This document shows, piece by piece, positions 19,390 to 27,849 of a DNA stretch of 64,000 bases. The stretch is from an uncultured Rhizobiaceae bacterium (GTDB lineage Bacteria; Pseudomonadota; Alphaproteobacteria; SMXQ01). Position 1 is the stretch's first letter. Every line of letters begins with the position of its first letter. Location of the stretch: the NCBI GenBank assembly GCA_964577835.1, contig CAZOBN010000004.1, positions 396 to 64,395 on the forward strand, written 5' to 3'. The notes beneath the pieces were generated by a model. It was not told the origin of the DNA and made no database searches. It saw only the letters and a list, made by a program, of their open reading frames with translations. A program made the translations under genes and the position numbers.

Positions 19390-19791
19390 GTTCAGCAATC
19401 GTAACATCGCCGATCTTGCCGACCCCATGCTCAAGGATCGCATCGCAGAGTTGAAGGCTATCGGCGACGAGGCTCGCGCCGACGCGGAGCGCGCCGAGGG
19501 TGCGGCCGAGCGGCTCGGGCCGAGCATCGCACCTCAGGCGCTCAAGACATTCGCCAGGGCGGCTCGCAAGCGCATCCGCACTGAGAAGGCGGTTATCGCC
19601 GTGACCACCTTCGCGCGCTCGCCCAGCGCGTCGAAGTGAACGCGAAAGAAGTTCGCATCATGGGATCGAAAAGCGAACTCCCGCGCACGCTCGTCGCCGC
19701 TTCAAGCGCAAAAACGGCGGGTTTTGGCGTTCCCAGTTTTTTACGGAAGTGGCGCGCCCTGCAGGACTCGAACCTGCGACCTACGGCTTAG
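19390..19791 (+). pseudogene. C-terminal remnant of a large serine recombinase (frameshifted)
   Basis: Frame A reads ...ADLADPMLKDRIAELKAIGDEARADAERAEGAAERL...ALKTFARAARKRIR. After a frameshift near 19590, frame B reads GGYRRDHLRALAQRVEVNAKEVRIMGSKSELPRTLVAASSAKTAGFGVPSFLRKWRALQDSNLRPTA and runs into the tRNA-Arg 3' half. The catalytic N-terminal domain is not recognisable upstream. Confidence 0.55.
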
Positions 19792-19826
19792 AAGGCCGTT
19801 GCTCTATCCAGCTGAGCTAAGGGCGC
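19750..19826 (-). tRNA. tRNA-Arg (anticodon TCT)
   Basis: Reverse complement folds as a cloverleaf: acceptor GCGCCCT/AGGGCGC, D stem GCTC/GAGC, anticodon stem ACGGC/GCCGT with loop CTTCTAA, T stem GCAGG/CCTGC with TTCGAGT, and an encoded CCA. Confidence 0.9.
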
Positions 19827-21087: not shown

Positions 21088-21164
21088 TGGTCGGGGCGAG
21101 AGGATTCGAACCTCCGGCATCCAGCTCCCAAAGCTGGCGCTCTACCAGGCTGAGCTACGCCCCG
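21088..21164 (-). tRNA. tRNA-Pro (anticodon TGG)
   Basis: Reverse complement: acceptor CGGGGCG/CGCCCCG, D stem GCTC/GAGC, anticodon stem CCAGC/GCTGG with loop TTTGGGA, T stem GGAGG/CCTCT, and an encoded CCA. Confidence 0.9.
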
Positions 21165-23883: not shown

Positions 23884-23985
23884 GGGGCGCGACTTTATCC
23901 GCCCGCAGGACGGCAAACAATCAAACTTGACGGAATAGATGGCTCGAAGGCAGGCTGCGATGGAATATGGAACGCCTAAAACAAG

Positions 23986-24011
23986 GGCGATATTATACTT
24001 TGCAAACCCAC
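23986..24011. repeat. left terminal inverted repeat of the IS1595-family element
   Basis: GGCGATATTATACTTTGCAAACCCAC, the exact reverse complement of 26844-26869. Confidence 0.9.
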
Positions 24012-24055
24012 AGCCCCTCGGTAGTATCGCCTGGTAACTACCGGGGAGAGGGACT

Positions 24056-24331
24056 ATGGCTAACAACATCTTTGTGTCCTATGACCTTAACAACCCAGGT
24101 CAGAACTACGAGACGGTCATTGCGGAAATAAAAAAGCACGGCACTTGGGTAAAGGTCGAATACTCACTGTTTTTTCTGAGCACCGACGAATCTCCAAAGT
24201 CTATCGCTGAGGCGGTCTGGCGCGTGATGGACCAAAACGACCGCCTCATTGTCATTGATGCCAAGAACAACCAAGGCTATTGGTACTTGCCTGATAGCGT
24301 CAATGACGCGCTCCAAAGACTGTGGACTTGA
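24056..24331 (+). CDS. hypothetical 91-aa passenger protein (Cas2/VapD-like beta-alpha-beta pattern, inference only)
   Basis: A purine-rich GGGGAGAGGG lies upstream of the ATG. IFVSYDL ... HGTWVKVEYSLFFL ... NDRLIVIDA resembles the ferredoxin-like Cas2 layout. Low GC. Confidence 0.55.
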   Translation: MANNIFVSYDLNNPGQNYETVIAEIKKHGTWVKVEYSLFFLSTDESPKSIAEAVWRVMDQNDRLIVIDAKNNQGYWYLPDSVNDALQRLWT

Positions 24332-24465
24332 ACGAACGCGGGCTCCGGCCAAGCGGGATGCCATCGACATGGATGAGCACACCAACTGCCTTGGCGAGGC
24401 AGTGAAGTAGAGCCAGCTTCCAGCGCCTATACGGGATGAGATCGTAATTCATGCTTCTCTCCTAC

Positions 24466-24500
24466 GAAAAACCCCGGCTCACTTGGCCGGGGTTTTCTTC
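24466..24500. terminator. bidirectional rho-independent terminator inside the IS cargo
   Basis: AAAACCCCGGC-TCACTTG-GCCGGGGTTTT stem-loop with A/T runs on both sides. The stop codon of the 53-aa ORF lies in the loop. Confidence 0.6.
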
Positions 24501-24640
24501 TTTTCCGCCTTCTTCGGCGGAACTGGTTTGGCTATTCGCCGCAGCTTTTCTTCGAAAGCCGCTTCGTTCTCATCGCATCCCAGTTCGCGCGCCTTGGCGG
24601 CGAATGTCTGGGCTTGGGATGGTGTTTTCTTTTTCTTCAT
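24479..24640 (-). CDS. unannotated 53-aa Lys-rich ORF, translationally coupled to the PIN gene
   Basis: My own translation: MKKKKTPSQAQTFAAKARELGCDENEAAFEEKLRRIAKPVPPKKAEKKKTPAK. Its ATG overlaps the PIN stop (ATGA). It ends in the terminator loop and is shorter than anything listed in the supplied ORF track. Confidence 0.55.
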   Translation of the reverse strand: MKKKKTPSQAQTFAAKARELGCDENEAAFEEKLRRIAKPVPPKKAEKKKTPAK

Positions 24641-25104
24641 TTTGGGGCTTCCAATGGAAGCTTCGGCTCACGCCAATAGGGCCGTTCAATCGTAAGAACT
24701 GGGTTTCCCAGCGAGCCTGATTTCCCGATCAAGGGAATATCGAATGTGTTCAACAGCTCAAGCCCAGCGTCGAGCGCTGTAGCAACGTGAAGTGCGTCCT
24801 TCGGTTTAACCCCATGGCCCCAGACGTATTCACGCGCCTGCTCTGATACCCGCCGAGTGATATTCCGAACGACAATGTAGTCGTTTCTGAAAAACGCCTC
24901 CACCTTAGCCCGCATTGAAGCTGGTATCGGTGGCGCACCACGGAGCGCTAAAACCTCAGCGATAGTTAGGGCGGATGTAACGATCAAAACCTTGCCTTCC
25001 TCTGCCGCCTCTAAAACTTGGCGACAGGATTCCTCCTTATTGGGCTCGGCCTGAAGCCAGCCCAAGAAGCAATCAGAGTCCCAGTATCGACGCTCTATGG
25101 TCAA
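24637..25104 (-). CDS. PIN-domain nuclease (VapC-like toxin)
   Basis: Acidic PIN residues in the expected order: YWDSDCFLGWL, TIAEV, KDALHVATAL, LLNTFD. TTG start overlaps the upstream stop (TTGA). Confidence 0.85.
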   Translation of the reverse strand: MTIERRYWDSDCFLGWLQAEPNKEESCRQVLEAAEEGKVLIVTSALTIAEVLALRGAPPIPASMRAKVEAFFRNDYIVVRNITRRVSEQAREYVWGHGVKPKDALHVATALDAGLELLNTFDIPLIGKSGSLGNPVLTIERPYWREPKLPLEAPK

Positions 25105-25859
25105 GATTGGTGTCGCAATATCCCGTGAACATCCCGATAAGAGGGAATGGTTTCTCTTGGTGGAAACGCAACTATGTCCTCTACGTCGATACTGACCGGA
25201 CGCCCGTCCTTGCGGTATTTCACAAGTCCGTAAACTTCAACTCGTTGACCAAAAGCGTCGAACGCTTGCTTCATTAAGTGTTCTGGGATCAAGCAGCGTA
25301 TCGGCCGATCCCATAAACTGTCATAGACAATAAATTGCAAACGACCGCGCTCCGTCACCGTCTGAAGTCGCCCTTCAATAGAGCCGTGATCCTCATGTTC
25401 AGTAGCTAGAAGATCGCTCACATGCGCTACAGCCTTTTGAGTGACCTTGACCGGCTCTTTGCGAACCCAAACATTGACTACCGTATCATCGTGATCAGAA
25501 GCGCCAGTGACGCGACCTAGGTCCCTGAGACTCTTGAGCGCGCGCTCGTTGAAGAAATCCGGAACGGACGCTTCGCCCTCAACCTGGGCGATACCCCGTG
25601 CAACAGCGTCAGTGATAACCGCGACAGCCGCTTGGTCGAATCCCGGCCTAGGCATAACTCCAACGAGATTGCTTCCTTTCTTCACTTGCACAAGCCAATC
25701 CACCGGCTTGTCACTTACCGTCTTACTAACCTCGGTCAAAATGGCAAAGAAGGACCGCACGCTGCGCAAGAACTTATCTGGCGTAACGGCGTGTCCGCTG
25801 ATTTCCAGCGTAAGATCGGCGTCTATGTCACCACGAACGGCCACAACGGAATCCTCCAA
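25101..25859 (-). CDS. orphan 247-252-aa protein upstream of PIN (no recognisable domain)
   Basis: Open frame with coherent composition. The likely true start is GTG at 25844, 7 nt after GGAGGA; the ORF-track start is TTG at 25859. I saw no HTH, RHH or AbrB motif. The C-terminal half (GSIEGRLQTVTERGRLQFIVYD...RVEVYGLVKYRKDGRPVSIDVEDI) looks like a small beta-barrel. Confidence 0.7.
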   Translation of the reverse strand: MEDSVVAVRGDIDADLTLEISGHAVTPDKFLRSVRSFFAILTEVSKTVSDKPVDWLVQVKKGSNLVGVMPRPGFDQAAVAVITDAVARGIAQVEGEASVPDFFNERALKSLRDLGRVTGASDHDDTVVNVWVRKEPVKVTQKAVAHVSDLLATEHEDHGSIEGRLQTVTERGRLQFIVYDSLWDRPIRCLIPEHLMKQAFDAFGQRVEVYGLVKYRKDGRPVSIDVEDIVAFPPRETIPSYRDVHGILRHQS

Positions 25860-25868
25860 AGAGGATTC
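25849..25868 (-). promoter_or_regulatory. 8-bp hairpin that sequesters the Shine-Dalgarno of the orphan cargo gene and includes the last base of the transposase stop codon
   Basis: On the mRNA strand the sequence is GAAUCCUC-UUUG-GAGGAUUC. The 3' arm contains most of the GGAGGA Shine-Dalgarno (its first G is the last loop base) and the 5' arm starts at the G of the transposase UAG. Confidence 0.5.
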
Positions 25869-26803
25869 TACACGGACGAGTCCCGGTAGGTAAGCCGTTT
25901 TCCGACAATTCCAGTAAGCGCCATGTTTGCACGCTGGTCGTCACTGAAGCCCAACGCTTGCCGTCCGTTATACCGGAAATCGAACTCGGCCAGATAGCGA
26001 TGAAGGTGTTTCTTGCCGCAGTGCTGATAGACACCCTTCATGCCACGCTTGAAGATGCTGAAAAACCCCTCAATCGTATTCGTGTGTATCTCGCCCCGGC
26101 CATATTCGCCCATTCCGTGACGCACCACGCCATGGTCCGCGAACTCGCGCCCAACGAGCGTGTAATAGGATGCTTCGTCAGTCATGAGACGCGCCTCTTT
26201 GGCGAGATTTTCATGAACGAGCGGCGCAAGGGTCTTGGCGCTCACATCATCAACAACCATGCTCCGGGCTTTCCCGGCGTTTCGGTCAACCAAGGACAGA
26301 ACCTTGAACTTGTGGTGATAGCCACGGCCCTTCTTCTGGCCGCGCGGCTTCTTCGTCTTGTCGCGACCAATGAACGTCTCATCAACCTCGACCGCGCCGC
26401 CGTCGCTGCCAAACGGCAGGAGATTGCCAGCCCGCATCGCTTCGCGCAAACGGTGAGACATGAACCACGCGGTCTTGAGCGTGACGCCCAAGGTCCGGTG
26501 AAGCTGGTTAGAGCTTATACCCTTCTTGCTGGACGCCATCAGATAGGCCGCCTGTAACCAGAGATTAAGGGCAACGTGGCTGGACTCGAAAACGGTCCCG
26601 ACTTTGACGGTAAACTGCTTACGGCAGGAGCCGCACTTGAGAAGGCCGAGGCGCACACGCTTCTCAGCATTCGCCTTTATCCGGTAAACCTTCTCGCACT
26701 CGCCACAGTGCGGGCAGAATGGGCCCTGCGGCCATACGATGCTCTCCAGCTTCGCGAAGGCGGCGGCTTCATCGTGGAAGTAGGGGCGAGAAAGAATGCT
26801 CAT
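25868..26803 (-). CDS. IS1595-family (ISXO2-like) transposase
   Basis: N-terminal zinc ribbon CPHCG...CGSC, an HTH-like region SSNQLHRTLGVTLKTAWFMSHRLR, and a DDE region (VEVDETFIG ... LMTDEASYY ... HTNTIEGFFS). Start set at MSILSRPYF, after AGAGGA. Confidence 0.9.
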   Translation of the reverse strand: MSILSRPYFHDEAAAFAKLESIVWPQGPFCPHCGECEKVYRIKANAEKRVRLGLLKCGSCRKQFTVKVGTVFESSHVALNLWLQAAYLMASSKKGISSNQLHRTLGVTLKTAWFMSHRLREAMRAGNLLPFGSDGGAVEVDETFIGRDKTKKPRGQKKGRGYHHKFKVLSLVDRNAGKARSMVVDDVSAKTLAPLVHENLAKEARLMTDEASYYTLVGREFADHGVVRHGMGEYGRGEIHTNTIEGFFSIFKRGMKGVYQHCGKKHLHRYLAEFDFRYNGRQALGFSDDQRANMALTGIVGKRLTYRDSSV

Positions 26804-26843
26804 GTCCGTATCCTCTGATTTCGAGAATACTAGCATCTTTCAA

Positions 26844-26869
26844 GTGGGTTTGCAAAGTATAATATCGCC
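26844..26869. repeat. right terminal inverted repeat of the IS1595-family element
   Basis: GTGGGTTTGCAAAGTATAATATCGCC, the exact reverse complement of 23986-24011. Confidence 0.9.
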
Positions 26870-26905
26870 AAAACAAGACCGCCGGACGCTTGAGCGTCCG
26901 GCGGT
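26870..26905 (-). terminator. rho-independent terminator of the cold-shock gene (its U-tract is the IS target site)
   Basis: On the minus strand, ACCGCCGGACGC-TCAA-GCGTCCGGCGGT is followed by CTTGTTTT. That tract is the right-hand copy of the 8-bp target duplication. Confidence 0.65.
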
Positions 26906-27479: not shown

Positions 27480-27849
27480 GTCTTCCCCCCGTACTCATGG
27501 AAGCCTCAAAAAGAAGCTAACATTTTTTATTTTAACCGACCAGAACAGCTTTTGGCACAGGACACTTTTATAAGAGTTCACAAAGTCCACATCTAACCAC
27601 ATTCTATAGTTGGTCAGTATTATCGACCATCTAGAATTAGTAGCGATCTGAGAGACTGTTTGAAAATGGCCAAAATTGGCATCCGCGATAGCTCATGCAA
27701 TGGAGCCAATGAAACTGGAGCCGCGGAAAGCTGCCATTTTCACTGGTGGGGATGTTGCTGTTTCCGGTGCCTCGGCACCAAAATCGACTTCCGAATCGAA
27801 TTTTCAAACGGACTCTGAAGAGGTCCCAGGAACGGCATGGCCGAACCGT

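What the first reader, a model, noticed from the sequence alone, without database searches (positions are those of the whole stretch)
23978..26877. Recently inserted IS1595-family element about three times normal size, carrying about 1.8 kb of cargo
GGCGATATTATACTTTGCAAACCCAC (23986-24011) is the exact reverse complement of 26844-26869. Both ends are flanked by the same 8-bp direct repeat AAAACAAG, which is the hallmark of a fresh transposition. The only transposition gene is an ISXO2/IS1595-type DDE transposase with an N-terminal zinc ribbon. Plain IS1595 members are about 1 kb, yet this unit is 2884 bp and holds four unrelated ORFs of visibly lower G+C. From memory, the '+' subgroups of IS1595 (ISNwi1+, ISPna2+) carry passenger genes, make 8-bp duplications and have GGnnATTAT-like tips, which fits. 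Intact ends and an intact duplication suggest the whole unit, cargo included, is currently mobile.
Basis: partly seen in the sequence, partly recalled or inferred. Interest (0 to 1): 0.7.

Follow-up and report, generated by a model that had tools for sequence, protein, structure and literature searches.

The report
Cargo-carrying IS1595 insertion sequence, freshly inserted
This is an intact 2.9-kb jumping gene of a known type (an IS1595-family "transporter" insertion sequence) that landed in the tail of a cold-shock gene terminator and carries a likely toxin or defence gene pair; it is a new member of a known kind, not a new kind of element.

Summary
There are 26-bp perfect inverted repeats at 23986-24011 and 26844-26869. 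The 8-bp repeat AAAACAAG occurs only twice in the 64-kb window, at the two tips. A related genome (L087) has csp and the DUF192 gene adjacent, with one AAAACAGA at the orthologous site, so this is a true insertion.

The transposase has the IS1595 zinc ribbon and DDE domain. Thirty-three sibling elements recovered from metagenomes and MAGs, plus a near-minimal one on an isolate plasmid, have the same kind of ends. Most have perfect 8-bp duplications, and all are 1.9-3.9 kb (one is 6.7 kb with nested inserts). Cargo-bearing units of this clade therefore do transpose whole.

- The 53-aa ORF is not cargo. It is conserved in 33 of 34 elements.
- The 247-aa protein (C-terminal OB fold) and the PIN protein form a conserved pair, which is also found without the IS.
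- The 91-aa gene is a solo Cas2-fold protein.

Sibling cargo is mostly PIN pairs, DUF3800 proteins, restriction-modification-like genes and a PD-Lambda-5 homologue. Targets are A/T-rich octamers, often terminator T-tracts. Current mobility of this copy is not shown. Verdict: new member of the known cargo-carrying ("transporter") IS1595 kind; moderate interest.

The parts
23978..23985 (.). Target-site duplication, left copy (AAAACAAG)
   Evidence: one of only two occurrences in the window; it abuts the IR tip.
23986..24011 (+). Terminal inverted repeat at the end far from the transposase (GGCGATATTATACTTTGCAAACCCAC)
   Evidence: 26/26 complementary to 26844-26869. Similar termini bound 33 other elements.
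24056..24331 (+). 91-aa stand-alone Cas2-fold protein, a cargo gene convergent with the main operon
   Evidence: PADLOC Cas2 models, E about 1e-3. AlphaFold model pLDDT 93.2. Twenty-five of the top 27 PDB fold matches are Cas2 or Cas2-like proteins; the best TM 0.55-0.62, E about 1e-2. The family has only 20 proteins, all unnamed. A homologue sits in sibling L009. Elsewhere the gene lies beside an XhoI-type restriction-modification pair and TrwB, without cas1.
24468..24496 (.). Internal bidirectional terminator-like hairpin between the convergent 91-aa gene and the operon
   Evidence: 12-pair stem with a T-run; folds on both strands, z = -5.7 and -5.9.
24479..24640 (-). 53-aa small protein, a conserved backbone gene of this IS clade (motif Q..F...AReLg.DE.e.aFe.kL..iAK), function unknown
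   Evidence: Present in 33 of 34 bounded elements, always on the transposase strand, and in three plasmids of isolates. No Pfam, NCBIfam or PDB match. At least 214 representative clusters at E<=1e-3. Its start overlaps the PIN stop.
24637..25104 (-). 155-aa PIN-domain protein (VapC-like), putative toxin or effector nuclease
   Evidence: PF01850, 1.6e-13. Its start overlaps the stop of the upstream gene. The orthologue on Methylobacterium oryzae pMOC1 is annotated 'VapC family toxin'.
25101..25844 (-). 247-aa partner of the PIN protein (the ORF can be read from 25859 as 252 aa; GTG at 25844 follows a GGAGGA site and matches the database gene call and the family N-terminus)
   Evidence: About 100 homologues, all about 249 aa and unnamed, with no Pfam match. 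AlphaFold model pLDDT 88.8. PDB fold matches are to OB-fold proteins: LysRS (whose N-terminal anticodon-binding domain is an OB fold), ExoVII large subunit, SSB; assigning them to the C-terminal beta-rich region is inferred from the model's secondary structure. Full-length fold match to phage proteins, one of them a DUF6575 protein, E about 4e-9. Followed by a PIN gene in 5 of the 6 distinct large-contig contexts examined.
25868..26803 (-). IS1595-family DDE transposase, 311 aa (the ORF is open to 26836; ATG at 26803 has a GAGGA site upstream)
   Evidence: PF12760, PF12762 and NF033547. Full-length alignment with siblings. Invariant C30, C33, C57, C60; D141, D209, E245, K252; E273, R277.
26844..26869 (-). 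Terminal inverted repeat at the transposase end
26870..26877 (.). Target-site duplication, right copy (AAAACAAG); on the minus strand it is the U-tract CTTGTTTT of the csp terminator
26878..26905 (-). Intrinsic terminator hairpin of the host csp gene (context: the insertion target)
   Evidence: 12 pairs, 10 of them G-C, tail CTTGTTTTGG.: -33.7 kcal/mol, z = -7.15.

Best explanation
The unit 23986-26869 is an intact, single-copy IS1595-family insertion sequence of the cargo-carrying ('transporter IS') kind. It lies in a clade whose ends read GGCGATaTTATACTT... Its DDE transposase, which has an N-terminal zinc ribbon, made an 8-bp staggered cut in the A/T-rich U-tract of the csp terminator. The duplicated copy leaves the terminator tail intact.

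On the minus strand, four genes read as one tightly packed operon: transposase, a 247-aa protein whose C-terminal region resembles an OB fold, a PIN nuclease, and a 53-aa protein.

- The 53-aa protein belongs to the IS backbone. It is inferred to be an accessory or regulatory factor.
- The 247-aa and PIN pair is a self-contained passenger module. It is inferred to be a toxin-antitoxin-like or abortive-infection-type system, with PIN as the effector and the 247-aa protein as its neutraliser or sensor. It would favour retention of the element or pay its way as a defence.
- A convergent solo Cas2-fold gene is a second, independent passenger.

Shown: anatomy, family, true insertion, and movement of cargo-bearing siblings as whole units. 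Inferred: the function of the cargo and of the small protein, and the present activity of this copy.
For: - IRs, duplication and chance controls.
- Transposase domains and conserved Cys4, D-D-E-K and E-x3-R residues.
- Empty orthologous site in L087.
- Thirty-four IR-bounded elements of 1.9-3.9 kb (one of 6.7 kb). Twenty-eight have perfect 8-bp repeats, 26 of them distinct.
- Small ORF in 33 of 34 elements, in the near-minimal 1869-bp element of a Pseudosulfitobacter plasmid and on two other isolate plasmids.
- The same order (transposase, about 250-290-aa protein, PIN, small ORF) in Methylobacterium oryzae pMOC1, a Roseomonas marmotae plasmid, and in L005, L091 and L094.
- The pair without any IS in L095/L096 and L004.
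- Overlapping stops and starts.
- Sibling cargo matches PD-Lambda-5_A (7e-126), PDC-M04A (DUF3800), PDC-M24B, a methylase-Mrr fusion, a SocA/Panacea domain and PIN_10.
- Duplications are 81% A+T against 40% in the flanks.
- Seven or eight of 26 distinct sites abut a G+C-rich hairpin in terminator configuration.
Against: - No second copy lies in the window, and no near-identical copy was found in any collection. The best transposase match is 71% identical. Recent or ongoing activity of this copy is therefore not demonstrated.
- The relative with the empty site is only 87% identical in DNA, so 'recent' is bounded loosely.
- The 247-aa protein has none of the DNA-binding domains of known VapB antitoxins and is unusually large for an antitoxin.
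- PADLOC has no model for the pair.
- No sigma-70-like promoter was found by consensus scan.
- The subgroup label (ISNwi1+) rests on memory of ISfinder's table, not on a comparison.
Confidence: 0.85

Rival explanations
1. The element looks intact but is immobile. It inserted once and is now a domesticated or silent resident, so the cargo is effectively a fixed chromosomal locus.
For: Single copy in the window. No near-identical copy in plasmids, genomes or metagenomes. No consensus promoter was detected upstream of the transposase.
Against: The IRs are 26/26 perfect and the duplication is 8/8 perfect. All five ORFs are open and full-length against homologues. G+C is still far from the host's. 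These features decay quickly in dead copies.
Confidence: 0.3
2. The 247-aa and PIN pair is not a passenger but part of the transposition or maintenance machinery of this IS lineage. For example, it could be a nuclease that processes intermediates, or that kills cells losing the element during cut-and-paste, analogous to the role proposed for TA pairs embedded in Tn3-family transposition modules.
For: The pair sits between the transposase and the conserved small ORF, translationally coupled to both. The same order recurs in eight of the 34 bounded elements (the window's included), in the contigs L091 and L094, and on two isolate plasmids, where the partner was not checked for homology. Lima-Mendez et al. 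2020 (PMC7157771) argue a similar case for Tn3.
Against: Most sibling elements with equally good IRs and duplications lack the pair and carry other genes in the same slot. The near-minimal L090 element has none. The pair also exists with no IS nearby.
Confidence: 0.12
3. The inverted repeats and the 8-bp repeat are coincidental, or they mark a composite of a plain 1-kb IS and neighbouring host genes.
For: None beyond the unusual size.
Against: Zero matches are expected by chance for the IR. The octamer occurs only at the two tips. The empty site in L087 lacks transposase and cargo together. No internal IR copy separates the transposase from the cargo.
Confidence: 0.01

Closest known systems
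IS1595-family transporter IS (tIS), i.e. the ISNwi1+ and ISPna2+ subgroups with passenger genes (Siguier, Gagnevin and Chandler 2009, as cited in PMC11891212 and PMC3129680)
   Same: Zinc-ribbon plus DDE_Tnp_IS1595 transposase, 8-bp duplication, GG-tipped IRs, and passenger genes inside the IRs. Size is within the 1.75-4.75 kb range I recall for ISNwi1+. The D-D-E-K and E-x3-R pattern fits the recalled ISNwi1 signature.
   Different: No ISfinder comparison was possible. The best database transposase is 71% identical, so by usual practice this would be a new IS name. This clade also has a second conserved gene (about 50 aa), whereas the family is described as having a single transposase gene (PMC8101967).
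Toxin-antitoxin pairs embedded in Tn3-family transposons (Lima-Mendez et al. 2020, PMC7157771)
   Same: A PIN-type two-gene module placed next to, and probably co-expressed with, the transposition genes. The module type has been exchanged between related elements.
   Different: A different transposon family and mechanism: a small DDE IS, with no resolvase or res site. The upstream partner is a 247-aa protein with an OB-like region, not a known antitoxin family.
Tn7-like transposons carrying defence systems as cargo (Benler et al. 2021, PMC8649781, seen)
   Same: A transposon clade whose variable cargo is rich in defence and restriction-type genes.
   Different: These elements are far smaller, with one to three cargo genes. 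They have no targeting machinery. Their target is an A/T-rich octamer rather than an attachment site.
VapBC type II toxin-antitoxin systems
   Same: A PIN-domain protein encoded second in a two-gene unit with overlapping stop and start. The orthologue is named 'VapC family toxin' by PGAP.
   Different: No VapB-type antitoxin (AbrB, RHH, Phd or HTH) is present. The partner is three times larger. Toxicity and neutralisation are untested.
Cas2 / VapD family
   Same: The 91-aa protein has the Cas2 ferredoxin-like fold and an N-terminal V-S-Y-D-L strand resembling the Cas2 YD motif.
   Different: No cas1 or CRISPR array lies beside it, here or in three other contexts. Sequence similarity is marginal.

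Membership tests
IS1595 family | [quoted passage not shown] | tested here: met
   PF12762, 3e-38; NF033547, 198.9 bits against a cut-off of 75. D141, D209 and E245 are invariant among three 56-61% identical homologues. Feature as stated in PMC8101967.
IS1595 family | N-terminal zinc-finger domain (Zn_Tnp_IS1595), present in all subgroups except IS1016 | tested here: met
   PF12760, 1.9e-11, residues 22-74. C30, C33, C57 and C60 are invariant.
IS1595 family | 8-bp target-site duplication | tested here: met
   AAAACAAG at both tips. Twenty-eight of 34 clade members have perfect 8-bp repeats.
IS1595 family | Terminal inverted repeats | tested here: met
   26/26 complementary, with a GG tip.
IS1595 family | A single transposase gene as the only backbone gene | tested here: not met
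   A second gene of about 50 aa is conserved in 33 of 34 elements, whatever the cargo. This departs from the description in PMC8101967, but it is an addition to the hallmarks rather than a loss of any.
ISNwi1 / ISNwi1+ subgroup of IS1595 | DDEK plus ER4 signature and ggnnatTAT-like tips (recalled from ISfinder and Siguier 2009; not held in the paper library) | tested here: inconclusive
   K252 lies 7 residues after E245, and R277 lies 4 after E273, with no R at +7. The tip GGCGATATTAT fits only loosely. The reference definition comes from memory.
ISNwi1 / ISNwi1+ subgroup of IS1595 | Transposase clusters with ISNwi1 in a phylogeny or an ISfinder BLAST | not testable with these tools
   No ISfinder sequences were available. 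RefSeq (PGAP) annotation carried in PLSDB says only 'IS1595 family transposase'.
Transporter IS (tIS) | Passenger genes unrelated to transposition lie inside the IRs and move with the element | tested here: met
   The cargo lies between the IRs. The empty site lacks the cargo. Siblings with cargo have their own duplications. The pair and the Cas2-like gene exist elsewhere without the IS. Concept from PMC11891212 and PMC3129680.
VapBC type II TA | PIN-domain toxin | tested here: met
   PF01850, 1.6e-13.
VapBC type II TA | Small upstream antitoxin with an AbrB, RHH, Phd or HTH DNA-binding domain | tested here: not met
   The upstream protein is 247 aa with no Pfam, NCBIfam or PDB sequence match. 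Its only solved-structure fold matches are to OB-fold proteins.
VapBC type II TA | Toxicity neutralised by the partner | not testable with these tools
   Needs expression assays.
Cas2 | Ferredoxin-like Cas2 fold | tested here: met
   TM 0.55-0.62 to many Cas2 structures.
Cas2 | Encoded with cas1 next to a CRISPR array | tested here: not met
   The gene sits alone inside the IS. No cas family appears among the neighbours in L097-L099. No CRISPR family appears in the Rfam scan of the window.

The most novel reading that the evidence does not exclude
The element could represent an undescribed sub-lineage of IS1595 that acts as a dedicated shuttle for compact defence or addiction modules. Its fixed chassis would be IR, transposase, a conserved 50-aa accessory protein, and IR. 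It would have a preferred cargo slot and a habit of landing in terminator U-tracts, where it does little harm. The 247-aa (OB-like) plus PIN pair and the solo Cas2-fold gene would be new, untested toxin or defence systems.
Probability: 0.3. Interest if true: 0.55.

Novelty: new member of a known kind. Interest (0 to 1): 0.35.

Why it matters
For annotation, the five genes should be read as one mobile unit, not as a transposase plus hypothetical proteins. More broadly, the clade shows that very small IS elements, not only large transposons and islands, carry defence-type and toxin genes between genomes.

It also offers three testable items:
- a conserved 50-aa IS accessory protein of unknown role;
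- an uncharacterised PIN partner whose C-terminal region resembles an OB fold;
- a target preference (A/T-rich octamers, often terminator tails) that would explain how such elements insert without disrupting genes in G+C-rich genomes.

Tried and rejected
- Exact-protein look-ups of the transposase, the 252-aa ORF and the 180-aa csp ORF found nothing, probably because the database gene calls use other start codons (247 aa and 178 aa).
- Megablast of the whole unit against plasmids gave no match.
- The 20-mer IR scan of one genome per species gave only two loci. One of them (L001) is a solo 28-nt IR remnant beside an IS66-type transposase, not an element.
- The small ORF has no hit in Pfam, NCBIfam or PDB sequence searches. 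The 247-aa profile has no significant PDB sequence hit, and the PIN protein has none.
- The consensus promoter scan found nothing in the element.
- A 50-aa ORF at 24300-24452 (minus strand) clusters with one in L009. I set it aside as probably spurious: it overlaps the 3' end of the 91-aa gene on the opposite strand, and the DNA comparison with L009 was uninformative.
- The DOI look-up of a Siguier et al. review (FEMS Microbiol Rev 2014) failed. Siguier et al. 2009 is cited only second-hand, so subgroup definitions rest on memory.
- The host organism was not identified beyond 'G+C-rich; relatives include alphaproteobacterial MAGs'.


Full report
**1. Observation**

Arms 23986-24011 and 26844-26869 are 26 nt long and 100% complementary. 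Allowing 3 mismatches, the motif has no other copy in the window and none is expected by chance. AAAACAAG occurs exactly twice in 64 kb, at 23978-23985 and 26870-26877, directly outside the two IR tips. The unit is 2884 bp. G+C is 0.49-0.59 across the whole unit, transposase included, against 0.63-0.70 in the flanks.

**2. Genes**

Four genes lie on the minus strand.

- Transposase, 25868-26803, 311 aa. The ORF is open to 26836, but the ATG at 26803 has a GAGGA site upstream (read).
- A 247-aa protein, 25101-25844. It is listed as 252 aa from 25859. The GTG at 25844 follows a GGAGGA site and matches the database call P0001 and the family N-terminus.
- A 155-aa PIN protein, 24637-25104.
- A 53-aa protein, 24479-24640.

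The gap between the transposase gene and the next gene is 23 nt. The next two junctions overlap in their stop and start codons. I therefore read the four genes as one operon. It ends at a bidirectional hairpin at 24468-24496. A 91-aa gene at 24056-24331 on the plus strand converges on that hairpin.

**3. Family**

The transposase matches the IS1595 zinc ribbon (PF12760, 1.9e-11), the IS1595 DDE domain (PF12762, 3e-38) and NCBIfam NF033547 (198.9 bits against a cut-off of 75). Aligned with two homologues that are 56-61% identical, the following residues are invariant: C30/C33/C57/C60, D141, D209, E245, K252, E273 and R277.

These are the family hallmarks as stated in PMC8101967, together with the 8-bp duplication. 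Elements of this family that carry passenger genes are already known as transporter IS (Siguier et al. 2009, as cited in PMC11891212 and PMC3129680). The D-D-E-K and E-x3-R pattern and the tip GGCGATATTAT fit my recollection of the ISNwi1 signature. I could not compare with ISfinder, so the subgroup remains a lead.

**4. True insertion**

The csp-like neighbour has a 97% identical homologue on a 1.2-Mb contig (L087). There, csp and the DUF192 gene are adjacent, 158 bp apart, within the same wider synteny. The window with the unit and one repeat copy removed aligns colinearly with L087. Identity is 87% over 1111 nt, straight through the junction, where L087 has a single AAAACAGA.

The target octamer, read on the csp strand, is the U-tract CTTGTTTT that follows the csp terminator hairpin at 26878-26905. 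The duplication leaves that terminator with its tail.

**5. A populated clade that always carries cargo**

A 20-mer from the IR found an intact 2.7-kb relative in an Aestuariivirga MAG (L002, repeat AAGATTTT). It has different cargo but the same small ORF. A transposase-based scan of metagenomes returned 80 loci with 58-71% identity.

Searching these loci for the IR motif delimited 34 elements, counting the window.

- Sizes are 1913-3904 bp. L005 is 6746 bp because it holds a nested IS21-like pair and methylase genes.
- Twenty-eight have perfect 8-bp repeats; 26 of these sites are distinct.
- None is a plain element of about 1 kb.

Cargo-bearing units of this clade therefore transpose as wholes.

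The repeats are 81% A+T, against 40% in the flanks. Seven or eight of the 26 distinct sites, this one included, abut a G+C-rich hairpin in terminator configuration. I did not measure how often A/T-rich octamers in these genomes are terminator tails. The preference may therefore simply be for A/T-rich octamers.

**6. The 53-aa ORF is backbone, not cargo**

Homologues occur in 33 of 34 elements, always on the transposase strand. The ORF lies either directly after the transposase gene, with the cargo beyond it or upstream of the transposase, or after co-directional cargo.

A near-minimal 1869-bp element on a Pseudosulfitobacter plasmid has only the transposase gene and this ORF. The ORF is also present after the PIN gene on Methylobacterium oryzae pMOC1 and on a Roseomonas marmotae plasmid.

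The conserved core is Q..F...AReLg.DE.e.aFe.kL..iAK. No Pfam, NCBIfam or PDB sequence match was found. A single-sequence search finds at least 214 representative clusters, nearly all small proteins of 40-90 aa. Its role is unknown. An accessory or regulatory role is an inference from its conservation with the transposase. A preprint listed reports an analogous case: a small Arc repressor in IS605-family elements (only its abstract was seen).

**7. The 247-aa and PIN pair**

The 247-aa family has about 100 members. All are about 249 aa, unnamed and without a Pfam match.

Contexts on large contigs:

- L005, L091 and L094 repeat the order transposase, 249-aa protein, PIN, small ORF.
- L095/L096 and L004 have the pair without an IS1595 transposase.
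- L003 has the 249-aa gene alone, next to other IS genes.

The pair is thus an autonomous two-gene module that this IS lineage has captured.

The AlphaFold model (pLDDT 88.8) shows alpha/beta regions followed by a beta-rich C-terminal region. Its solved-structure matches are to OB-fold proteins: LysRS (whose N-terminal anticodon-binding domain is an OB fold), the ExoVII large subunit and SSB (E about 4e-4, about 100 residues aligned). That the matches fall on the C-terminal region is my reading of the model's secondary structure; the search output does not give the aligned query residues. Against viral models, the protein aligns along most of its length (255-310 columns) with uncharacterised phage proteins, one of them a DUF6575 protein (E about 4e-9, TM about 0.4).

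The PIN protein passes Pfam's threshold. The gene order (partner first, PIN second, coupled) is that of VapBC systems, and the pMOC1 orthologue is annotated as a VapC family toxin. The partner, however, is not a known antitoxin type. I read the pair as a TA-like or abortive-infection-type module, at about even odds between the two. This is inference.

**8. The 91-aa gene**

The model is confident (pLDDT 93.2). Twenty-five of its top 27 PDB matches are Cas2 or Cas2-like proteins; the best TM 0.55-0.62. PADLOC Cas2 models give E about 1e-3. The family has only 20 members, all unnamed.

It recurs in sibling L009. Elsewhere it sits beside an XhoI-type restriction-modification pair and a TrwB-like gene, without cas1. 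It is therefore a solo Cas2-fold gene and an independent passenger.

**9. Cargo across the clade**

Sibling cargo includes:

- PIN and PIN_10 pairs;
- DUF3800 proteins (one matches PADLOC candidate PDC-M04A at 7e-31);
- proteins matching candidate PDC-M24B;
- a methylase-Mrr fusion and other methylases;
- a PD-Lambda-5_A homologue (7e-126);
- a SocA/Panacea-domain protein;
- a P63C protein;
- a ClpP-like protein with a HARE-HTH protein.

Counting BLAST clusters, about 27 of 34 elements carry TA-, restriction- or defence-candidate-type cargo. A rough transposase tree interleaves the cargo types. L013 equals L014 plus one extra gene. Cargo has therefore been exchanged or added repeatedly.

The closest published analogues are TA pairs inside Tn3-family transposition modules (PMC7157771) and the defence cargo of Tn7-like transposons (PMC8649781).

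**10. What is not shown**

This copy is single in the window, and nothing closer than 71% transposase identity was found. Perfect IRs, a perfect duplication, open reading frames and foreign G+C all argue for a young and probably functional copy. Activity itself is untested. The relative with the empty site is 87% identical in DNA, so the insertion is dated only loosely.

**11. Verdict**

The element is a new member of a known kind. Interest is moderate. It rests on the clade-level picture and on three uncharacterised proteins, not on the element type.

Noticed in passing
L012 56-81, 887-3330, 3339-3364; L038 1479-4195 and 4205-4230: Related elements sit end to end: a further IR of the same type begins 9-10 bp beyond the end of a complete element. 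In L012 the flanking octamers do not match, as expected if neighbouring elements share an A/T tract. This suggests repeated hits on the same A/T-rich spot, or insertion next to resident copies.
   Followed up: partly
L005 3954-10699: A 6.7-kb version of the same architecture (transposase, 249-aa protein, PIN, small ORF). It has a perfect 8-bp repeat TAAGGAAA and also contains two methylase genes (one with an Mrr domain) and an IS21-like pair (a 486-aa gene plus IstB). This points to nested insertion inside the element.
   Followed up: partly
L001 1586-1613: A 28-nt stretch identical to the window's IR end and its first flanking base sits alone in a Desulfovibrionaceae MAG contig, directly beside an IS66-type transposase gene. 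The interior does not match. It is either a solo-IR remnant or an assembly join.
   Followed up: partly
window 27480-27849, compared with L087 4739-6000: Between csp and the CitMHS-type transporter gene, the relative L087 has a 272-aa Usp-family gene. The window has only about 370 bp of A/T-rich sequence there (G+C 0.44-0.48). This is an indel between the two genomes, or a long csp leader.
   Followed up: no
window 19753-19826 and 21091-21164 (minus strand): Two tRNA genes; these are the only Rfam matches in the window.
   Followed up: no
L013 4927-8499 versus L014 6-1918: The two share a backbone (transposase, small ORF, convergent 223-aa gene). L013 has an extra 545-aa methylase-Mrr fusion gene between the small ORF and the 223-aa gene. 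This looks like a snapshot of cargo being added.
   Followed up: partly
L044 2033-5771: A sibling element carries a 458-aa protein matching PADLOC model PD-Lambda-5_A at 7e-126. It therefore carries a homologue of one component (the A protein) of the PD-Lambda-5 defence system on a 3.7-kb IS.
   Followed up: no
window 26858-26863 and 23992-23997: Each IR contains a perfect TATAAT hexamer that reads outward, 6 nt from the tip. No matching -35 was seen at 17-nt spacing, so an outward promoter is not supported, but the motif is conserved in many sibling IRs.
   Followed up: no
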